64,000 nucleotides of DNA. Origin: Candidatus Limimorpha sp. Lineage in GTDB: Bacteria > Bacteroidota > Bacteroidia > Bacteroidales > F082. Made by a program: the position numbers and the translations under genes. The stretch's first letter is position 1, and every line of letters starts with the position of its first letter. The notes beneath the pieces were generated by a model. The model made no database searches. It was not told where the DNA came from and saw only the letters and a program-made list of their open reading frames with translations. Location of the stretch: contig JBJEGZ010000011.1 of assembly GCA_051875555.1 (NCBI GenBank), positions 108,452-172,451 of the forward strand, given 5' to 3'. Below, in pieces: positions 4,921 to 64,000 of the stretch.

Positions 4921-6234
4921 TTACATAAAGATGTATCTTAATACGAAAAGAATAAAGAGAATCCACATTGTGATGCTGATTTTCTTGAAATATTCTTTTT
5001 TGAAAATACCGCAGATGGCGTTCAGCGCGACGTATGAGATCATACCGAGCATGATTCCGTCAGAGATGCTGTATGCGAGAGGCATAAGCAGCGCCGTGAT
5101 GAATGCAGGTATTGATTCTGAATAGTTTTCCCATTCGATATTCTTCAATGGAGCTGCCATCATGACACCGACAATGCAGAGTACGGGACCTGTTGCGGCG
5201 TTAGGAATGGCGAGGAACAACGGTGAGAAGAATAATGCTATAACGAATCCCAAAGCGATGACGAATGATGTGAGTCCTGAACGTCCGCCTTCCGAAACTC
5301 CGGCCGCACTTTCGATGTATGTTGTCGTTGTTGAGGTTCCAAGGCAGGCTCCTGCTGTGGTAGCTACTGCGTCAGCCATCAATATCTTGCTGATGCCGTC
5401 GATGTGACCGTCTTTGTCAACCATGTTCGCCTTAACTGATACGCCTACAACGGTGCCGATGGTGTCGAACATATCAATGAATAAGAATGTTAGGACAACG
5501 ATAAGCATATCCCATGATAAGATTCTGCTCCACTCGAACTGGCAGAAAATAGGCTTGATCGAAGGCACTGAGGAGACAATTCCGTTGAATTGAGTCACTC
5601 CCATTGGAATGCCGATGAATGTTGTCGCAAGAATACCTATTAATAATCCTCCTTTGACTTTCAAAATGACGAGAGCAGAGGTGATTACGAAACCGATAAT
5701 GGTGAGAATAGATGATGTTGTGCTGAGGTTTCCAAGAGCAACGTCTGTCGCAGGGTCGTCAACGATGATACCGGCGTTTCTCAAACCTATGAATGCGATG
5801 TATAAGCCGATACCCGCACCGATAGCGTTCTTTAAAGTCGTTGGGATAGCGTTGACAATGGCTTCCCGTATATTAGTGATTGTCAGTAAGATAAATATGA
5901 TACCCTCGATAAGGATCGCTGTCAGGGCAAATTGCCATGAATATCCCATCCCGAGGCAGACGGTGAATACGAAGAAAGCGTTAAGACCCATTCCAGGTGC
6001 AAGTCCGAAAGGCTTTTTGGCATAGAAGGACATCACAAGTGTACCGATGATGGCCGCAAGGGCTGTGGCCGTGAACACAGCGTTGGTGGGCATGCCCTTA
6101 TCCGCAAGAGCACTGAAAATGTTTGGGTTGACAGCGAGTATGTATGCCATTGTTAAGAATGTCGTGATACCCGCAACAATCTCAGTCTTGACACTCATTG
6201 TCTTTTTGTTGAATCCGAATAATTTGTTTAGCAT
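4921..6234 (-). CDS. NCS2 family purine permease (adenine/guanine/hypoxanthine type)
   Basis: Polytopic membrane protein. N-terminus MLNKLFGFNKKTMSVKTEIVAGITTFLTMAYILAVNP is typical of the AzgA/PbuG-like NCS2 group. The start was moved to the ATG at 6232-6234. Confidence 0.9.
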   Translation of the reverse strand: MLNKLFGFNKKTMSVKTEIVAGITTFLTMAYILAVNPNIFSALADKGMPTNAVFTATALAAIIGTLVMSFYAKKPFGLAPGMGLNAFFVFTVCLGMGYSWQFALTAILIEGIIFILLTITNIREAIVNAIPTTLKNAIGAGIGLYIAFIGLRNAGIIVDDPATDVALGNLSTTSSILTIIGFVITSALVILKVKGGLLIGILATTFIGIPMGVTQFNGIVSSVPSIKPIFCQFEWSRILSWDMLIVVLTFLFIDMFDTIGTVVGVSVKANMVDKDGHIDGISKILMADAVATTAGACLGTSTTTTYIESAAGVSEGGRSGLTSFVIALGFVIALFFSPLFLAIPNAATGPVLCIVGVMMAAPLKNIEWENYSESIPAFITALLMPLAYSISDGIMLGMISYVALNAICGIFKKEYFKKISITMWILFILFVLRYIFM

Positions 6235-56672: not shown

Positions 56673-59600
56673 TTATGCTATTGCACTCTCAGGATTTACA
56701 ACCCCGTGTATGTTGTCAATGTATTTTGCAAGTGGTAACATATAACCATCGAACACCGACAGTCTTTCATCAAATGGTGATTCATTTACAACGATGTCTT
56801 TTGTTATGTCTCCATTTTCGCATACGTATGAAATAATTGTCATCAAGAACTCTTCCTGTTCTGAGTTCAGTTCTGAATCTGAAATGAATGTAGAGAAACG
56901 TTCAACGGCATTCTTCCTGTCTACTCCAATGATTGAACGTATGAACACCGCTACATTCGTTCCACAAGACAATCCTGATGTGTATTTGTTGTAATCCTCC
57001 CTGCTCCCTAATTCTTTCCATAGGATTCTTTCTAACTCGTGTACATCTGCAATGCTCAACTGCTCCATTGAATATATCTTATCCAATACAGGCAAGTTCC
57101 TGTGTTCTGTAAGAAAATCCAAGACTTTCTTCTTATATGATACTCTTGTCGTGATTCCTGTACTTGTTCCATTGAACGACAATTCATCTTCTATGTCGAT
57201 GACAAACCATTTCTTCTTTTCACCGATAAGGAATTTTGTCAAGTCTCTTAAATCTTCCCTGACTTTCTCCAACCAACTCAGATTTAAATTAGTCCAACTG
57301 ACACGATTCAAGACTTCCTTGATAGTCTCCATCTTCGCCTGTATCTGTGGGATTGTCGCTTTCTCTTCCAATTTGCCTACGACATAGATTGTGCTTTCTA
57401 TCGCATTTCCAGCATAGACTTCACTGTCTAACAAAGACAGTTCGATTGTCAGCATCAGGATGTCAAATTTCTTTGCGTTCTCATCTAATGTGTTCTTTAC
57501 AAGTAATGGTGCGATGTCTTTCTTCAATGTCACCGTGTCTAACTCAGACAGGTAAATCCAAGAAGATTCTTCCTTGAAATGACTTACCTCCTTCCATTTA
57601 GCACGTACTGAAATATGAGTGTCCGACAATACCGCAACTTGTTCCTTCAAGAGTTTCTTGATGTCATTATGCAGACTCTTTGTAAATTCATCTTCCTGAT
57701 ATTCCTGACGTTGAAGATGGAACGCAATGTCAGAACGCAATCCGAATATTTTTTCTGTCAATGAAGGTGTGTTATTGGTTATCTCTTTCCCGTTTGGATT
57801 CTTTTCAAAGTAATCGAAGTTACAGCACCAATCGAAGATGTAAAATTCCTTTTTATCTTCATCTCCGAAAATACCCGGTGACAATCGTGTTCCTCTGCCT
57901 ATCATCTGCATGAACTTTATCTTTGACTTCACCGGTTTAAAGAACACTAAATTTAAAATGTCGGGGACGTCAATTCCTGTGTCTAACATATCTACCGAAA
58001 CCGCAATCTGTGGATGTGAATCCCTTTTTTCAAACTTGTCGATATAATCCTGTGCGTATGGATTCTGATTGTCTATCAATTCACAGAAGCCTATTCCACC
58101 GTATTCAGGATACAATAAATTAAATCTGTCAACTATCAGCTCTGCATGATGATGTCCGTAGGCGAATATTATTGTTTTTCCAAGTTTATCACCGCTCTGA
58201 ACCTTCAAACCGTTATCCATCAAATCCTGCAAAACCTTGTCAATGGTATCAAGATTATGGATATAACGGAACATTTCATTACTTTGGATGTCTCTGGATT
58301 CTCCGCCTCCCATTGCATTTCTTGCCCTTTCATACTCCCATATCTCTTCCATCTGTTCCTTCTCCTCTTCCGTGAGATTGTCGTATTTGATACCTCCTTT
58401 AAGAATCATCGAACCACGCTTGAATCCGACATAATCGACAAGATAACCGTCAGAAACAGCGTCTTCCAATTCGTATGCATAATTAGGAACACCTTGTTCC
58501 ATTTCAAATATATCGTAAGTGGATTTGTCTATTTCGTTTCTCGGCGTCGCTGTCAGTCCGATGAGCATTGAATCGAAGTAGTTGAATATTGCACCGTACT
58601 TACCGAAGATAGAACGGTGCGCTTCATCAATGATTATCAAATCAAATCTTCCTACAGAATACTGTTTCTCATCATTGTTAACAAAGTTGATCATTGTCTG
58701 ATATGTAGAAAACGTGATTCTTGCATTCATGTCAGGTTCTTTGTCTTCATTCAGGATTGTTGTCGTCTCATTAGGAAGGAGTTTTACAAAATTCCTGTGT
58801 GCCTGTTTTACCAACGATGTTCTGTCAGCAAGGAACAACACGTTCTTAACCCAATCATTTCTTTTCAATACATCAACCAAAGAAATGGCAACTCTTGTCT
58901 TTCCTGTTCCTGTCGCCATCACAAGCAATCCTTTTCTGTGCTTTGTGTTGTAATGTTCGCAAACAGCCTTGATTGCTGTCTTCTGATAATGTCTGTCTGT
59001 TATATTGTCGTTTACTGAAAAGTCTGTGATATCCTTTCTGCTTCTCTTCTGTATCAGTCGTTCCAAATCCTCTTCCGTATGGAAACCGTAAAGTCTTCTT
59101 GGAGGATAACCCAATCCGTCAATGATGAATGTATCAAAACCGTTAGTATAGTATATCACAGGACGTACACCGTATTTCGCTTCCAAACAGTCAGCATACA
59201 GTTCCGCCTGATGTTTCCCCTTTGTTGTTGAAGCGGAAGTTCTCTTTGCCTCAACAACCGCCAAAGGTTTTCCGTTACTTCCGAACAGCACATAATCAGC
59301 ATAACCGATTCCATTTATGTTCGGCATGCCGTGTAACTCAACTTCAACACACGCTCTTGAAGGTTGAATCATACCGTCTGTATTAAGTATCTTCCAACCT
59401 GCTTCTCTAAGCATTAAGTCGATATACAGGCATCTTGTCTCTGCTTCCGATATATCTATCGGAAGTACATCAACTGGGACCTTTGAATCAACGGCATTCT
59501 TATCAGCGCATGCAACGATTTTGTCTGTTGATGTTGCTTTTTCAACTTTTGGATTTGCAACTATCAGTGATTTTGGATTATTCGGAATAAGAGTTTTGTC

Positions 59601-59996
59601 AAATGGTTTTATCTCTTCGATGAATCCGAGTTTCTTTAATATCGTAGCGACTATGTTATACAGATTCAGGAGACAGAAGAAAGATTCCTTTCTCCTTACA
59701 TCAGATGTATGTGCGCCATTATTGCCGATTTTCCTGATGTAATGTATGGACTTCATTACATTTTCGTCACCGATAAAATCCTTGAACGGTTCGCCATCTA
59801 TCAACTCAAACAATGACGTTTTTTCAGGAAGTTTAATATTCTTCATCTGATACAAGGCACGAACAAGATATTCCAAAGCACGTCTTGCATTGATGACGCT
59901 GATATCAGGATTGCTCCGCTGATGTTTCTCTGCTGATGAACACAGGCGATGTAGCGCATTAAACTCTAAATCCTTTAAATAGTCAAAATTCTTCAT
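56673..59996 (-). CDS. hsdR: type I restriction endonuclease subunit R with N-terminal DUF4145-like module
   Basis: 1107 aa. N-terminal ~130 aa are helical (INARRALEYLVRALY...IRKIGNNGAH). A PD-(D/E)xK region (ADYVLF...VVEAKR) is followed by SF2 helicase motifs (MATGTGKT, DEAH, TATP, QMIGRGTR) and an EcoEI-R-like C-terminal domain. Confidence 0.92.
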   Translation of the reverse strand: MKNFDYLKDLEFNALHRLCSSAEKHQRSNPDISVINARRALEYLVRALYQMKNIKLPEKTSLFELIDGEPFKDFIGDENVMKSIHYIRKIGNNGAHTSDVRRKESFFCLLNLYNIVATILKKLGFIEEIKPFDKTLIPNNPKSLIVANPKVEKATSTDKIVACADKNAVDSKVPVDVLPIDISEAETRCLYIDLMLREAGWKILNTDGMIQPSRACVEVELHGMPNINGIGYADYVLFGSNGKPLAVVEAKRTSASTTKGKHQAELYADCLEAKYGVRPVIYYTNGFDTFIIDGLGYPPRRLYGFHTEEDLERLIQKRSRKDITDFSVNDNITDRHYQKTAIKAVCEHYNTKHRKGLLVMATGTGKTRVAISLVDVLKRNDWVKNVLFLADRTSLVKQAHRNFVKLLPNETTTILNEDKEPDMNARITFSTYQTMINFVNNDEKQYSVGRFDLIIIDEAHRSIFGKYGAIFNYFDSMLIGLTATPRNEIDKSTYDIFEMEQGVPNYAYELEDAVSDGYLVDYVGFKRGSMILKGGIKYDNLTEEEKEQMEEIWEYERARNAMGGGESRDIQSNEMFRYIHNLDTIDKVLQDLMDNGLKVQSGDKLGKTIIFAYGHHHAELIVDRFNLLYPEYGGIGFCELIDNQNPYAQDYIDKFEKRDSHPQIAVSVDMLDTGIDVPDILNLVFFKPVKSKIKFMQMIGRGTRLSPGIFGDEDKKEFYIFDWCCNFDYFEKNPNGKEITNNTPSLTEKIFGLRSDIAFHLQRQEYQEDEFTKSLHNDIKKLLKEQVAVLSDTHISVRAKWKEVSHFKEESSWIYLSELDTVTLKKDIAPLLVKNTLDENAKKFDILMLTIELSLLDSEVYAGNAIESTIYVVGKLEEKATIPQIQAKMETIKEVLNRVSWTNLNLSWLEKVREDLRDLTKFLIGEKKKWFVIDIEDELSFNGTSTGITTRVSYKKKVLDFLTEHRNLPVLDKIYSMEQLSIADVHELERILWKELGSREDYNKYTSGLSCGTNVAVFIRSIIGVDRKNAVERFSTFISDSELNSEQEEFLMTIISYVCENGDITKDIVVNESPFDERLSVFDGYMLPLAKYIDNIHGVVNPESAIA

Positions 59997-60128
59997 GTCT
60001 GTAAGTCGTTTATGCGTTTCTTATTCTATTTAAACTTTATCGGCCATTTTTGATGGCTAACGATGGTTTTATCGACCATTTACCGACCATTTTCGATAAT
60101 AAAACTTGTGTCATATACCTTATCTTTA

Positions 60129-61214
60129 TTATTCAAACCAATACTGCATACGTGATGCAAGCAAGGTTTCGAGGTCTGTTATCGTACTCTTTATCTCTGC
60201 TTTCTGTTGCTCTATGAGTTCGATGCGTTGAGCGAAGAGCTGTTGGATAGAGAGAGGTGGTATTTGAATGAGCAAAGGTGCAATATCACAATTATTGAGC
60301 TGCAATATTGTTGAACCACTGCAAATAGTTCCCAAATCTAGTATTTTAAACCATTGGAATAGATAGTGTTTATTTAACACCTCAGAAGGTATTACACCCA
60401 TTGTGTTTAAATCGCAACAAATTTCAACAGCAGCCATGCGTTTCTTATTTGTCAAAATTGCGCCACCTCTTTTGGGGAACAAAATGCTACCAATAGGGAA
60501 AATGCCTTTTTGATTAAATGCCCAATCAACATATGTAGAAGAACAAGTAATATAGTTTTCATTGCCAGGAAGATTCATATCACCTACCTTTACATATGGC
60601 AAAGTTCCTTTGGGGGATTTGTTTGTTTTTGAATCACCGCTTTTTAATGAGCATACGTCACCAATTGTCTTCACCTCCCATCCCTTTTTATTTTCCACAG
60701 GGTCTCCGAACATCTCATAGAAGATGCTTTGTGCGAGGTTGTCATAGTCTTTCAGTTGCTCCTTCTTCAGACGAATCAACTCATTAATCTTGTCAAGCTC
60801 AGAGACGATGGAGAGTTGAGTGGAGAGGGGAGGGATAGGAATTTCAAGTTCCTTTAACAACTTATAGTGTCTCGAGTATCCTAAATTAGGAATTTTGTAC
60901 CACGTAAGGTAATAGAGTAGAAATTTTGCATTCAGGTTCTCTTTTGGTGAAATAATCTTAACACCATCAGCGCCGACGACAAAATCAAAATCGATAAATT
61001 TGAGTACCCTTGTGTGATCTCCAAATATAATGACAGGTTTGTCTATGTGAAATAACATAGATTCATCATCACAATATCCAGATATCAACTTGTCCTCCTG
61101 AGAAATAATTGGATATTTGGTCCCGCTATTGTATTCGTTGGTTTTGACTTGCTTTGCTTTAGGAACATTATTTATGCAAGATTCAAAACTTTTACACTCC
61201 CAACCTTCTCTCAT
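60129..61214 (-). CDS. hsdS: type I restriction-modification specificity subunit
   Basis: 361 aa. Two variable target-recognition regions are separated by conserved coiled-coil repeats (PPLSTQLSIVSELDKINELIRLKKEQL and PPLSIQQLFAQRIELIEQQKAEI). Confidence 0.9.
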   Translation of the reverse strand: MREGWECKSFESCINNVPKAKQVKTNEYNSGTKYPIISQEDKLISGYCDDESMLFHIDKPVIIFGDHTRVLKFIDFDFVVGADGVKIISPKENLNAKFLLYYLTWYKIPNLGYSRHYKLLKELEIPIPPLSTQLSIVSELDKINELIRLKKEQLKDYDNLAQSIFYEMFGDPVENKKGWEVKTIGDVCSLKSGDSKTNKSPKGTLPYVKVGDMNLPGNENYITCSSTYVDWAFNQKGIFPIGSILFPKRGGAILTNKKRMAAVEICCDLNTMGVIPSEVLNKHYLFQWFKILDLGTICSGSTILQLNNCDIAPLLIQIPPLSIQQLFAQRIELIEQQKAEIKSTITDLETLLASRMQYWFE

Positions 61215-62098
61215 ACCTCGTCCTCCTGCTCGTAATAATATGAATAATCAATTCCCTTCATGAAAATCTCCCGACTATCGGTGTCGTGGGTGATGGCATT
61301 GTGCAGCAGTTGCTTGATGCGCGAGGCATCGGCAACACTCTGTGTCATAGCCTCAAGATAGTCGCGCTTGCCTATCTTGCTCCAGTCGATACAGCAATGA
61401 TGGCGAGCCTTCAGCATCAGGTCAAGCCAGATTCGGGTGCTGCGGCCATTGCCTTCCATGAATGGGTGGGCAACGTTCATCTCTACATATTTGTCGAACA
61501 CCTCGTCAAGAGTAGTTTCGGACATTCGCTCTATCTGCTCCAACTGCTGCGGCAGATACTGGGCAAGGCAAAAGGTGAAACCACCCTTTGAGATGGTCTT
61601 GGTGCGTATCTGTCCGGCAAAGTCGTATAGCCCTCCGAAGATATAAGCGTGTATCTGCTGTAAAGCCTGTATGGTTCCCTCACGGAAATTTTCCATCATA
61701 TTGCTCTCATACAAGGAATATGCTTTTCGCTTGCTCTGCCCGTCGATGGTATTATCGCTGTATGTCAGCCAGTCGAGAAATGCCGTAGCCTTCTGGTTGG
61801 GCATCACCTTTGCAAGGGCTGCTATGCCTTCAGCATCAAGGGTGTCGGTAAGTCGGTTTTTGCCATCAGGTGCAAGCATTTTCAACTGGTTAGTGGCACT
61901 AACCAGTTCATTGTTTTCCTTCCTGAGCTTCGTCTTCAGATACTTCCAATAGTTGCGCGTCTTGGCATAGTCATCCTGCTCGTTGATAGCACCAATGACG
62001 TCGAGCACAGAGAACTGCCATTGCGCTCTGTCCTCGACCCAAATGGCACGCACCTCACGGTCGTTATAGAATCGGATGGAAATCTTCTTATCTTTCAT
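61211..62098 (-). CDS. Bro-N-like DNA-binding domain fused to a Fic (AMPylase-type) domain
   Basis: N-terminus IRFYNDREVRAIWVEDRAQWQFSVLDVIGAI shows the Bro-N pattern. The Fic active-site motif is HPFMEGNGRSTR. A possible intramolecular inhibitory motif SNMMEN ([ST]xxxE[GN]) lies upstream. The stop overlaps the hsdS start (ATGA). Confidence 0.85.
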   Translation of the reverse strand: MKDKKISIRFYNDREVRAIWVEDRAQWQFSVLDVIGAINEQDDYAKTRNYWKYLKTKLRKENNELVSATNQLKMLAPDGKNRLTDTLDAEGIAALAKVMPNQKATAFLDWLTYSDNTIDGQSKRKAYSLYESNMMENFREGTIQALQQIHAYIFGGLYDFAGQIRTKTISKGGFTFCLAQYLPQQLEQIERMSETTLDEVFDKYVEMNVAHPFMEGNGRSTRIWLDLMLKARHHCCIDWSKIGKRDYLEAMTQSVADASRIKQLLHNAITHDTDSREIFMKGIDYSYYYEQEDEV

Positions 62099-62134
62099 CG
62101 TATGTCAATTCGTTATTTACAATTATATCCATAC

Positions 62135-63634
62135 CTATTTCTCCTCCAGCATCTTTACGAGTTCGCTATAGCCCTTGATATATTCCGTCTCTGATTTGTC
62201 TAAACGGGCGAGGATGGTCTCTACGCTGTCATACACCACCTTCTCACGTTCCACTTCCTTGTACTTGTTGATGGAGAGGTCGTAGCCGTTGGCACGGATG
62301 TCATCCACTGAGACAAAGAAACTCTGCTCTTTCCTACTGCGGCTCTCTTCGCCCTTCAGGTCGTGGAAACGCTTGACCACATCGGGAATGTCGTTGTCGG
62401 AGACTGGACTGCGTTTGTCGTCAAGCGAAAAACCGTCGGCCTTCATGTCGTAGAACCACACCTTGTCAGTGCCTCCGTTGTTGGTCTTGGTGAATATCAG
62501 TACGGCTGTGCTGACCCCTGCGTATGGCTTGAAAACCCCGCTTGGCATAGATATAACAGCACGCAACTGCTGGTTGTCAACAATCTCCTTGCGGATGGCA
62601 ACATGAGCCTTTGAGGTGCCGAAGAGCACTCCATCGGGAACAATCGACGCGCAACGCCCGCCAAGTTCAAGTGAGCGTACAAACTGGGCAAGGAACAACA
62701 GTTCCGTCTTGCTGGTATTGGCATAGGCAAGAATTTTCTTATTGACATTCCCCTTGTCAAGACTGCCGGCAAACGGTGGATTTGCCAAACAAAGAGTATA
62801 TTTGTTTTCATCTGTGTTGTCAGTTGATAGACTGTCTTTATATTCAACATCAGGATTGTCAACGCCATGCAACATGAGGTTCATAGCGCCGATACGAAGC
62901 ATTGTAGCGTCAGTATCGAAACCATGAAGCAATCCGTTTCTGTAGTGTTCTGCATTGCCTTTTTTAAGCAATTCATTTTTATAATGTTCTTGTATATATT
63001 TTGCAGATTCAACGATAAAACCGGCTGAACCCATTGCTGCATCACAGATAGAATCCTGTAATGTAGGTTTCATCATTTCAACTATCATCCTGATGATATG
63101 TCGAGGAGTTCTGAACTGTCCGTTATTGCCACTCGCCGCCATCTTCCCAAGTACATATTCATATACATCACCCATAGTGTCACGGTTGTTCATATCAAGA
63201 GAATCAATGCCTTCGACAATCTTAACCAATGTTCTTGGGTTCTGAATCATGAATGTGGCATTTGCCATAAATCTGCTATATGCCGATTCCTTTCCTGTGT
63301 TTAGATTCTTGATAAAAGCGAAGACATCACGACTGATAAGTCTGTACATTTCTTCCGCTTCCTTATTCTTGAATACACTCCATCTTAGACTGTCGTAAGC
63401 GACATCCTTGTCGGTATCAGGATTGTGCCACATACCATGCTTGAAAGTAGGATCTTTAACTTCAACACCCATTAGACTTGCATTTGCTTCTTTGGTCTTC
63501 TGTGCGTCATCAAGCATTTTCATGAAGAACAGGTAAGTCATCTGTTCAAGGATTGTGATAGAATTTGTGATACCGCCCGTCCAAAAAGCGTCCCAAATCG
63601 TGTCGATTCTATTTTTGATATCTCCTGTAATCAT
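62135..63634 (-). CDS. hsdM: type I restriction-modification DNA methyltransferase subunit (N6-adenine)
   Basis: HsdM_N region (IWDAFWTGGITNSITILEQMTYLFFMKMLDD), SAM motif DAAMGSAGF and catalytic NPPF (LANPPFAG). Confidence 0.93.
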   Translation of the reverse strand: MITGDIKNRIDTIWDAFWTGGITNSITILEQMTYLFFMKMLDDAQKTKEANASLMGVEVKDPTFKHGMWHNPDTDKDVAYDSLRWSVFKNKEAEEMYRLISRDVFAFIKNLNTGKESAYSRFMANATFMIQNPRTLVKIVEGIDSLDMNNRDTMGDVYEYVLGKMAASGNNGQFRTPRHIIRMIVEMMKPTLQDSICDAAMGSAGFIVESAKYIQEHYKNELLKKGNAEHYRNGLLHGFDTDATMLRIGAMNLMLHGVDNPDVEYKDSLSTDNTDENKYTLCLANPPFAGSLDKGNVNKKILAYANTSKTELLFLAQFVRSLELGGRCASIVPDGVLFGTSKAHVAIRKEIVDNQQLRAVISMPSGVFKPYAGVSTAVLIFTKTNNGGTDKVWFYDMKADGFSLDDKRSPVSDNDIPDVVKRFHDLKGEESRSRKEQSFFVSVDDIRANGYDLSINKYKEVEREKVVYDSVETILARLDKSETEYIKGYSELVKMLEEK

Positions 63635-63700: not shown

Positions 63701-64000
63701 TCATTTATTTTCCTTCAAGAAATTTTCCAAATCTGAACGAGAGTTGAAAGTGTACATTTCATCGTTATAGAATATGCAGGATTTCATCTCCTTGTTCGCC
63801 TGTTCAGTGTTTATCTGTACAGTAACATTATTTTCATCAACTCTAAATAAATCACGGACAGATACATTGAAATACTCGGCAATCTTTTTCAGTGTTCTGT
63901 ATTGTGGATTTCCCTGCAAAGTACGAGATAATGATTCTGACCTCATTCCGATCTGTTCTGCCAAATCCTTTAATTTCAATCCTCGTTCCTGTAGAAATTC
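63701..64000 (-). CDS. XRE-family HTH protein; N-terminus lies beyond the right edge of the window
   Basis: The in-frame reading continues to the window end (EFLQERGLKLKDLAEQIGMRSESLSRTLQGNPQYRTLKKIAEYFNVSVRDLF), a typical HTH_3 fold. The ORF-track 'M' at 63979 is an internal TTG. Confidence 0.7.
   Translation of the reverse strand, partial: EFLQERGLKLKDLAEQIGMRSESLSRTLQGNPQYRTLKKIAEYFNVSVRDLFRVDENNVTVQINTEQANKEMKSCIFYNDEMYTFNSRSDLENFLKENK

What the first reader, a model, noticed from the sequence alone, without database searches (positions are those of the whole stretch)
61211..62098. Bro-N/Fic protein translationally coupled inside a type I R-M operon (between hsdM and hsdS)
Gene order on the minus strand is XRE-HTH, hsdM, Bro-N/Fic, hsdS, hsdR. 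The Fic gene stop overlaps the hsdS start (ATGA at 61211-61214). The Fic protein is therefore made stoichiometrically with the R-M subunits.

The protein combines a Bro-N-type DNA-binding or antirepressor-like N-domain with an intact Fic catalytic motif (HPFMEGNGRSTR). A candidate autoinhibitory motif SNMMEN matches [ST]xxxE[GN].

The architecture parallels the PrrC anticodon nuclease embedded in EcoprrI. There, a latent toxin is held in check by the R-M complex and is unleashed when phage anti-restriction proteins attack it. A Fic AMPylase could play the same guard or abortive-infection role. Fic genes inside type I loci are annotated in genomes, but I know of no experimental characterisation of this Bro-N/Fic form.
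Basis: partly seen in the sequence, partly recalled or inferred. Interest (0 to 1): 0.6.

Follow-up and report, generated by a model that had tools for sequence, protein, structure and literature searches.

The report
Fic toxin cassette inside restriction operon
An intact gene for a self-inhibited Fic (AMP-adding) enzyme fused to a DNA-binding domain sits inside a type I restriction operon; this arrangement is real but common and is already listed as an untested anti-phage candidate, so it is a new member of a known kind.

Summary
On the minus strand the order is XRE-HTH, hsdM, a 295-aa Bro-N/Fic gene (61211-62098), hsdS, hsdR. The fic stop overlaps the hsdS start (ATGA).

The C-terminal half is a class III Fic, 52% identical to Neisseria NmFic (fold Z 28). 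Its catalytic motif is complete.

The whole protein matches PADLOC model PDC-S04 end to end (E 1.6e-156). PDC-S04 is a candidate found by others through "guilt by embedding" and is still unvalidated.

The gene is a mobile cassette:
- The closest hsd operons lack it or hold other cargo in the same slot.
- Its GC3 is 0.62, against 0.38 for hsdS.
- Of 80 species-level homologues, about 24 lie in or beside type I systems and about 11 beside other restriction systems. The rest lie elsewhere.

This favours a self-contained latent toxin or abortive-infection module over a PrrC-like guard held by Hsd proteins.

In passing I confirmed a 12-bp coding palindrome in the Bro-N region, kept by compensatory synonymous changes. 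This scan had already reported such palindromes on other DNA.

The parts
63701..64000 (-). XRE/Cro-C1-type HTH gene (3' part; the ORF runs past the window end and is up to 124 aa in the contig)
   Evidence: Pfam HTH_26 and HTH_3. Not detected within the roughly 1.5 kb fetched upstream of hsdM in the closest hsd operons, by tblastn at E<=1e-3.
62135..63634 (-). hsdM, type I methyltransferase subunit (499 aa)
   Evidence: Pfam N6_Mtase 4.8e-66 and HsdM_N; PADLOC MTase_I 1.4e-178.
61211..62098 (-). Bro-N/Fic gene (295 aa), PADLOC candidate PDC-S04
   Evidence: PDLC04841 residues 4-293 to profile 3-292 of 292, E 1.6e-156. NCBIfam NmFic equivalog 244.7 bits, above the 230 cut-off. PDB NmFic E 4e-57. 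Model pLDDT 81.6.
61745..62098 (-). Bro-N-type DNA-binding domain (residues 1-118)
   Evidence: Relatives pass the Pfam Bro-N threshold. Model pLDDT 88. Best folds: CpGV Orf22 N-domain Z 8.6, Mbp1 APSES DNA-binding domain Z 7.5. Also matches the N-terminus of PADLOC PDC-S13 (6e-26) and phrog_15286.
61884..61908 (.). perfect 12-1-12 palindrome inside the Bro-N coding region (codons E64-L72)
   Evidence: 96.1% of cells paired in 82 sequences, against 9.5-49.6% for slid controls. Five pairs show compensatory changes; 0 of 500 shuffles reach this. Unique in the genome.
61433..61468 (-). Fic catalytic motif HPFMEGNGRSTR (residues 211-222)
   Evidence: Read from the sequence. H, P, F, E, G, N, G, R and the final R are invariant in 34 homologues.
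61226..61243 (-). C-terminal auto-inhibitory motif SYYYEQ (residues 286-291), class III type
   Evidence: Aligns with NmFic SYYYEG. S286 and Y287-289 are invariant; E290 and Q291 are at least 90% conserved.
61688..61705 (-).
   Evidence: Aligns with NmFic SGDIDR. Only E131 and S132 are invariant, and the Glu of the string varies.
60129..61214 (-). hsdS, specificity subunit (361 aa); its start overlaps the fic stop
   Evidence: Pfam Methylase_S, two stretches; PADLOC Specificity_I 2e-71.
56673..59996 (-). hsdR, EcoAI-like restriction subunit (1107 aa) with an N-terminal DUF4145
   Evidence: Pfam ResIII, EcoEI_R_C and HSDR_N; NCBIfam restrict_EcoAI 1e-74; PADLOC REase_I 1.1e-156.

Best explanation
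The gene encodes a single-protein, self-inhibited toxin module. An N-terminal Bro-N-type DNA-binding domain is fused to a class III (NmFic-type) Fic AMP-transferase. The Fic active site is blocked by the protein's own C-terminal helix (SYYYEQ).

The gene is a mobile cassette that landed in the hsdM/hsdS junction of an otherwise ordinary type I operon. It is probably transcribed with that operon, and hsdS translation may be coupled to it; both are inferred from spacing and the lack of signals, not measured.

By homology with NmFic, the released enzyme most likely AMPylates the ATPase subunit of DNA gyrase or topoisomerase IV (GyrB Tyr109 type) and stops DNA replication. This would give growth arrest or abortive infection as a second layer behind restriction.

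Control is most likely intrinsic: the inhibitory Glu, auto-AMPylation of the first Tyr of SYYYE, oligomer state, and perhaps DNA binding by Bro-N. Physical masking by Hsd subunits is less likely.

What is shown: architecture, family membership, cassette nature, enrichment near restriction systems. What is inferred: target, trigger, defence role.
For: Identity:
- Searches give the family matches. One search gives Z 28, rmsd 1.4 A over 175 residues, 52% identity to NmFic.
- Motifs are invariant in 34 homologues.

NmFic biochemistry: auto-inhibition by the alpha-inh Glu, Tyr183 auto-AMPylation, an inactive tetramer and GyrB Tyr109 as target, as summarised in PMC12894286.

Cassette nature:
- The three closest hsd operons (HsdM 85-86% identical) have hsdM directly followed by hsdS. 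Two others (77-78%) carry unrelated ORFs of 402 and 240 aa in the same slot.
- fic GC3 is 0.615, against 0.376 for hsdS and 0.408 for hsdR.
- Both gene orders, M-Fic-S-R and M-S-Fic-R, occur, often with 4-nt overlaps.

Enrichment:
- About 24 of 80 species-level loci lie in or beside type I systems.
- About 11 lie beside type ISP, type III, fused methylase, EcoRI-type methylase, a ResIII/DEAD-type helicase gene, or GmrSD.
- A few lie beside SIR2-STAND or ABC-ATPase genes.
- A Treponema plasmid homologue again follows hsdS.
- The window's own genome has a single type I system and a single fic, inside it.

PADLOC lists the family as a candidate derived from embedded genes.
Against: - No experiment shows defence for this family. 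One PDC-S04 gene deleted in E. coli NILS69 gave no phenotype against 93 phages (10.1101/2024.12.20.629700).
- About half of the homologues sit among housekeeping or unknown genes, so a defence role is not demanded by context.
- The last residue of the inhibitory motif is Q, not the canonical G or N.
- The NmFic tetramer-interface residue E156 is Arg260 here and varies in the family, so NmFic-style regulation may not transfer.
- The target is inferred only from 52% identity to NmFic.
- The C-terminal helix is poorly modelled (pLDDT below 50).
Confidence: 0.55

Rival explanations
1. PrrC-like guard. The Fic protein is physically held inactive by the HsdM/S/R complex and is released when a phage anti-restriction protein attacks the complex.
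For: Embedding between hsdM and hsdS with tight coupling. Many homologues sit in the same or the neighbouring slot of type I operons in several phyla. PrrC is a precedent.
Against: Homologues 65-87% identical sit beside unrelated restriction types (ISP, III, II, IV), on mobilisable elements and among housekeeping genes. A conserved contact with Hsd subunits is therefore unlikely. The protein carries its own inhibitor. In a phylum-wide even sample only 3 of 14 full-length copies were type I-adjacent within 1.5 kb. There is no homology to PrrC.
Confidence: 0.12
2. Selfish hitch-hiker or growth regulator. The cassette spreads by inserting into frequently transferred operons and acts, like NmFic, as a density- or stress-linked brake on growth, with no role against phages.
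For: NmFic is described as regulating bacterial growth. There are many non-defence contexts. One negative native-host test exists. The composition differs from the neighbours. The family is very abundant, with at least 8000 clusters at 90% identity.
Against: There is a strong excess next to restriction and other defence genes. The same Bro-N domain heads another embedded candidate, PDC-S13. A single polypeptide with a built-in inhibitor cannot work as a classical addiction module.
Confidence: 0.2
3. Regulator of the restriction system itself. The Fic enzyme AMPylates an Hsd subunit, or the Bro-N domain acts on the operon, to tune restriction (for example restriction alleviation).
For: Co-expression with Hsd subunits. 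It is repeatedly associated with ATP-dependent restriction enzymes of types I, ISP and III.
Against: Nothing here points to an Hsd target. The closest hsd operons work without it. Many copies have no restriction genes nearby.
Confidence: 0.05

Closest known systems
NmFic (Neisseria meningitidis class III Fic; PDB 2G03, 3S6A, 5CKL)
   Same: 52% identical over residues 116-291, fold Z 28. Same catalytic motif, same C-terminal SYYYE inhibitory helix and the same auto-AMPylated Tyr position.
   Different: NmFic has no N-terminal domain. Here a 115-aa Bro-N domain is added, the motif ends in Q instead of G, and the tetramer-interface Glu156 is Arg.
PADLOC phage-defence candidate PDC-S04 (Payne et al., bioRxiv 10.1101/2024.01.29.577857)
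   Same: Full-length match to model PDLC04841 (292 positions), and embedded in a type I system exactly as the candidates were defined.
   Different: None in kind; this is one more member. The candidate itself is untested, apart from one negative native-host test of a PDC-S04 gene in E. coli.
PrrC anticodon nuclease in EcoprrI
   Same: A latent toxin gene placed between hsd genes.
   Different: PrrC has an unrelated fold and chemistry (ABC ATPase plus RNase). It is almost exclusive to type I loci and is controlled by the Hsd complex. This Fic is self-inhibited and is found in many other contexts.
SoFic (validated Fic-domain defence protein)
   Same: A Fic AMP-transferase acting as an abortive-infection toxin (PMC12249575).
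   Different: Only a weak match (PADLOC SoFic E 4e-5). SoFic is a different class with a different architecture and a separate small antitoxin.
BstA with its aba DNA element (Owen et al. 2021, PMC8585504)
   Same: An N-terminal KilA-N/Bro-N-like DNA-binding domain plus an effector domain, with a short DNA element inside its own gene.
   Different: aba is bounded by direct repeats and lies at the gene start, and it serves prophage self-immunity. Here the element is a palindrome 190 nt into the gene, the gene is not in a prophage, and no function has been shown.

Membership tests
Fic/Doc family (Pfam PF02661) | Catalytic motif HxFx(D/E)GNGRxxR and a Pfam score above the gathering threshold | tested here: met
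   HPFMEGNGRSTR at residues 211-222; 49.8 bits against a cut-off of 24.
Class III Fic (NmFic type) | Inhibitory helix [ST]xxxE[GN] at the C-terminus of the same polypeptide | tested here: inconclusive
   SYYYEQ aligns with NmFic SYYYEG. The Ser and Glu are conserved, but the last residue is Q in at least 90% of the family. The helix is modelled with pLDDT below 50.
Class III Fic (NmFic type) | NCBIfam equivalog NF046029 above its cut-off, and an NmFic-like fold | tested here: met
   244.7 bits against 230. Z 28, rmsd 1.4 A over 175 residues.
Bro-N domain (Pfam PF02498) | Pfam score above the gathering threshold | tested here: inconclusive
   This protein scores 17.8 bits, below 25.6. N-domain relatives at 46-64% identity score 27.7-41.3 bits. 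The fold is nearest to a baculovirus Orf22 N-domain (Z 8.6) and APSES DNA-binding domains (Z 7.5), which are middling scores.
PADLOC PDC-S04 | Full-length match to a PDC-S04 model | tested here: met
   PDLC04841, E 1.6e-156, residues 4-293 to profile 3-292 of 292.
Type I restriction-modification system | hsdM, hsdS and hsdR together in one operon | tested here: met
   all lie on the minus strand between 56673 and 63634.
PrrC-like guard of a type I system | Near-exclusive embedding in type I loci | tested here: not met
   About 24 of 80 loci and 3 of 14 in an even phylum sample. The others lie beside other restriction types or elsewhere.
PrrC-like guard of a type I system | Toxin kept latent by binding the Hsd complex and released by anti-restriction proteins | not testable with these tools
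   Needs pull-down and phage experiments. No complex prediction was run, because this report makes no binding claim.
BstA/aba-type self-recognition | A cognate DNA element in its own gene that suppresses the protein's activity | not testable with these tools
   A conserved coding palindrome exists, but binding and suppression are untested.

The most novel reading that the evidence does not exclude
The Bro-N domain reads the palindrome that lies inside its own coding sequence as a 'self' mark, or as a sensor of DNA state. This would be a BstA/aba-like arrangement. Fic activity would then be gated by DNA binding rather than by the Hsd proteins. The palindrome changes sequence between subfamilies while staying self-complementary, which would fit cognate protein-site pairs.
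Probability: 0.15. Interest if true: 0.75.

Novelty: new member of a known kind. Interest (0 to 1): 0.38.

Why it matters
Genes nested in restriction operons are a proven source of new anti-phage systems. This Bro-N/Fic family is one of the most abundant such passengers in gut and oral Bacteroidota. It occurs in at least 468 species genomes and in 3.5% of an even phylum sample. Its close similarity to NmFic makes the mechanism directly testable: a GyrB AMPylation assay, inhibitory-Glu and catalytic-His mutants, and phage challenge. The finding itself adds no new kind of system. Its value lies in the corrected anatomy, the cassette-slot evidence and the coding palindrome, which give concrete handles for experiments.

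Tried and rejected
- SNMMEN as inhibitory motif: rejected.
- tblastn with the window's own Hsd proteins found few neighbours because type I families diverge. I replaced it with iterated HMMs and Pfam scans.
- Flanking direct repeats of the cassette: only a weak 13-of-16 repeat at the two junctions (61212-27 and 62130-45), so I make no claim.
- Palindrome as intrinsic terminator: a T-run follows it only on the antisense strand of this window and is absent in distant homologues. Rejected.
- Frameshift site: the A-rich codons upstream of the hairpin vary between homologues and show no conserved heptamer. Rejected.
- Rfam: no match at 61100-62300.
- Second copy of the palindrome in the window or the genome: not found.
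- RNA evidence of expression: no RNA holder was listed.
- Phage records: no full-length Bro-N/Fic, only the separate domains.
- C-terminal domain of a Bro-N-only relative (P0240): no family found.
- The two alternative slot ORFs in related operons: no Pfam family.
- Complex prediction of Fic with HsdM/HsdS: not run, because the report makes no binding claim and gene neighbourhood alone is not reason enough.

Full report
**Observation**

The minus strand of the window end carries five co-oriented ORFs:
- an XRE-type HTH (63701 to beyond 64000; up to 124 aa in the contig);
- hsdM (62135-63634);
- a 295-aa ORF (61211-62098);
- hsdS (60129-61214);
- hsdR (56673-59996).

Pfam, NCBIfam and PADLOC identify HsdM, a two-domain HsdS and an EcoAI-like HsdR. 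The fic stop TGA and the hsdS ATG share ATGA at 61211-61214. The hsdS start is confirmed by the conserved N-terminus M[KR]xGWE of related operons. hsdM and fic are 36 nt apart. There is no terminator-like site or Bacteroidetes -7 box on that strand between hsdM and hsdS. Co-transcription is therefore likely but not shown, and no RNA run was listed.

**What the protein is: the Fic half**

- Residues 116-291 are 52% identical to NmFic (E 4e-57).
- They pass the NCBIfam NmFic equivalog (244.7 bits against 230).
- The AlphaFold model (pLDDT 81.6) superposes on NmFic with Z 28 and rmsd 1.4 A over 175 residues.
- The motif HPF[MR]EGNGR[ST]xR is invariant in 34 homologues.

The true inhibitory element is the C-terminal SYYYEQ (286-291). 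It aligns with NmFic SYYYEG, with invariant Ser and Tyr and a Glu conserved in at least 90% of sequences. So this is a class III, self-inhibited Fic. The canonical last G/N is replaced by Q throughout the family.

NmFic Glu156, whose change to Arg breaks the inactive tetramer, is Arg260 here and varies in the family. Oligomer control may therefore differ.

**What the protein is: the N-terminal domain**

- Residues 1-118 score below the Pfam Bro-N threshold (17.8 bits), but relatives of the domain pass it (up to 41.3 bits).
- The domain model (pLDDT 88) is nearest to a baculovirus Orf22 N-domain (Z 8.6) and to APSES DNA-binding domains (Z 7.5). These scores are middling but coherent.
- The domain family is large: 4367 clusters at 50% identity with E up to 1e-3.
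- The domain also heads another PADLOC candidate, PDC-S13, and a phage family, phrog_15286.

**Already catalogued**

The whole protein matches PADLOC model PDLC04841 (PDC-S04) from end to end, E 1.6e-156. The PDC candidates were defined from genes embedded in BREX, DISARM and type I systems (Payne et al., 10.1101/2024.01.29.577857). The 145 candidates are untested. One PDC-S04 gene deleted in E. coli NILS69 showed no defence against 93 phages (10.1101/2024.12.20.629700). I found no experimental paper on the Bro-N/Fic form.

**Cassette nature**

The island is just the five genes, flanked on both sides by housekeeping genes and without mobility genes. The genome has one fic and one type I system.

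Among 271 genomes of the same family, 13 hold a related hsdM (45-86% identity), and none has fic beside it:
- In the three closest (85-86%), hsdM runs straight into hsdS.
- In two others (77-78%), the same junction holds unrelated ORFs of 402 and 240 aa with no Pfam family.

fic has GC3 0.615, against 0.376 for hsdS and 0.408 for hsdR. The hsdM/hsdS junction thus behaves as a slot for varied cargo.

**Neighbourhood survey**

A scan of one genome per species found 468 genomes with a relative. The best 80 loci (65-87% identity) are nearly all Bacteroidales, with single cases labelled Anaerovoracaceae, Victivallaceae and Capnocytophaga. I used iterated HMMs for M, S and R and Pfam scans of neighbours. 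The results:
- About 24 loci lie in or beside type I systems. Both M-Fic-S-R and M-S-Fic-R orders occur, often with 4-nt overlaps.
- About 11 lie beside other restriction genes: type ISP; type III with Hypoth_Ymh; an HSDR_N-methylase fusion; an EcoRI-type methylase; GmrSD; and a ResIII/DEAD-type helicase gene (L030, L062).
- Some of these lie on mobilisable elements with relaxase, MobC, VapE, primase and excisionase genes. There, a 71-aa XRE gene overlaps the fic start by 8 nt.
- A few lie beside SIR2-STAND or ABC-ATPase genes.
- The rest lie beside housekeeping or unknown genes, or on contigs too short to judge.

The same type I loci often carry further passengers: YhcG/DUF1016 nuclease, RhuM and a Fic-wHTH protein.

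A Treponema plasmid homologue (62.5% identity) again starts at the hsdS stop. In an even sample of 400 genomes of the phylum, 14 hold the full-length form. Three of these are type I-adjacent within 1.5 kb and two more sit next to YhcG.

The enrichment is far above what one type I system per roughly 2000 genes would give. That background is a rough figure based on my own genome count, not a controlled test. The association is far from exclusive.

**Mechanism**

NmFic is held inactive by its alpha-inh Glu and by tetramerisation. It activates by auto-AMPylation of Tyr183 and then AMPylates GyrB Tyr109 (summarised in PMC12894286). All sequence elements for catalysis and auto-inhibition are conserved here.

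The most likely action is therefore AMPylation of gyrase or topoisomerase IV, giving arrest of replication. The trigger is unknown. The wide range of contexts and the built-in inhibitor argue for intrinsic control rather than masking by Hsd proteins. The PrrC analogy therefore describes the gene's position better than its mechanism.

**Coding palindrome (seen in passing)**

Window 61884-61908 is a perfect 12-1-12 palindrome. It lies in codons E64-L72 of the Bro-N region.
- In 82 distinct homologous segments, 96.1% of positions stay paired, against 9.5-49.6% when the partner is slid.
- Five pairs show compensatory changes, and 0 of 500 shuffles reach this.
- The two main haplotypes (GAACTG...CAGTTG and GAGTTG...CAACTG) differ by matched synonymous changes.
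- Third codon positions inside the stem are nearly fixed, while the flanking ones vary freely.
- Synonymous-codon shuffles of the gene never reach a 12-bp stem (0 of 300).
- As RNA it folds at -19.6 kcal/mol, z -3.6.

The Treponema homologue, a Bro-N protein with a different C-terminal domain, and three Bro-N-only genes at 35-38% identity in unverified phage-labelled contigs from human faeces all carry a palindrome of different sequence at the same codons.

It is not a terminator, not in Rfam and is single-copy in the genome.

Earlier reports of this scan describe the same coding palindrome in Bro-N, RhuM and DinD genes on other DNA. One of them pointed to the BstA/aba precedent, which I read (PMC8585504). 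The palindrome's role is unknown. A site read by the Bro-N domain itself is the most interesting reading that the evidence does not exclude.

**Verdict**

It is wrong on the inhibitory motif, and its stoichiometry claim and PrrC parallel are not supported. The system is a new member of a catalogued candidate family.

Noticed in passing
window 61884-61908: Perfect 12-1-12 palindrome inside the Bro-N coding region. It is kept self-complementary across 82 homologues by compensatory, mostly synonymous changes. A palindrome of different sequence sits at the same codons in distant Bro-N genes. Function unknown; it is not a terminator, not in Rfam and is single-copy in the genome.
   Followed up: yes
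L087:311-1519 (-) and L088:742-1464 (-): In hsd operons with HsdM 77-78% identical to the window's, the hsdM/hsdS junction holds unrelated ORFs of 402 and 240 aa with no Pfam family. In the three closest operons the junction is empty. The junction acts as a cargo slot.
   Followed up: partly
L003, L013-L016, L020, L032, L049, L053 (loci): The same type I loci often carry further embedded genes next to Bro-N/Fic: YhcG/DUF1016 PD-(D/E)XK nuclease, RhuM and a Fic-wHTH protein. Up to three or four passengers occur per operon.
   Followed up: partly
L029, L030, L067 around 5778-6001: On mobilisable elements (relaxase, MobC, VapE, primase, excisionase) a 71-aa XRE HTH gene overlaps the Bro-N/Fic start by 8 nt, a toxin-antitoxin-like layout. 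A type III, helicase-type or fused-methylase restriction system follows directly.
   Followed up: partly
window 61211-62098 against 56673-61214: fic has GC 0.49 and GC3 0.615. hsdS (0.376 and 0.376) and hsdR (0.39 and 0.41) are much lower, which suggests a separate origin for the cassette.
   Followed up: yes
window 62099-62137 and 61212-61227: A 14-codon ORF (MDIIVNNELTYDER) starts 3 nt after the hsdM stop and ends inside the fic start. The two cassette junctions share a weak 13-of-16 repeat (GGAG..AGGTATG). This may be a remnant of the old hsdM/hsdS junction, or chance.
   Followed up: no
window 59694-59933 (HsdR residues 22-101): HsdR has an N-terminal DUF4145 domain. This domain also matches the N-terminus of the PADLOC multi-gene candidate PDC-M16A.
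   Followed up: no
L026:5412-6008: A DMP19-like (DNA-mimic family) gene and a YhcG gene lie directly upstream of a Bro-N/Fic homologue.
   Followed up: no
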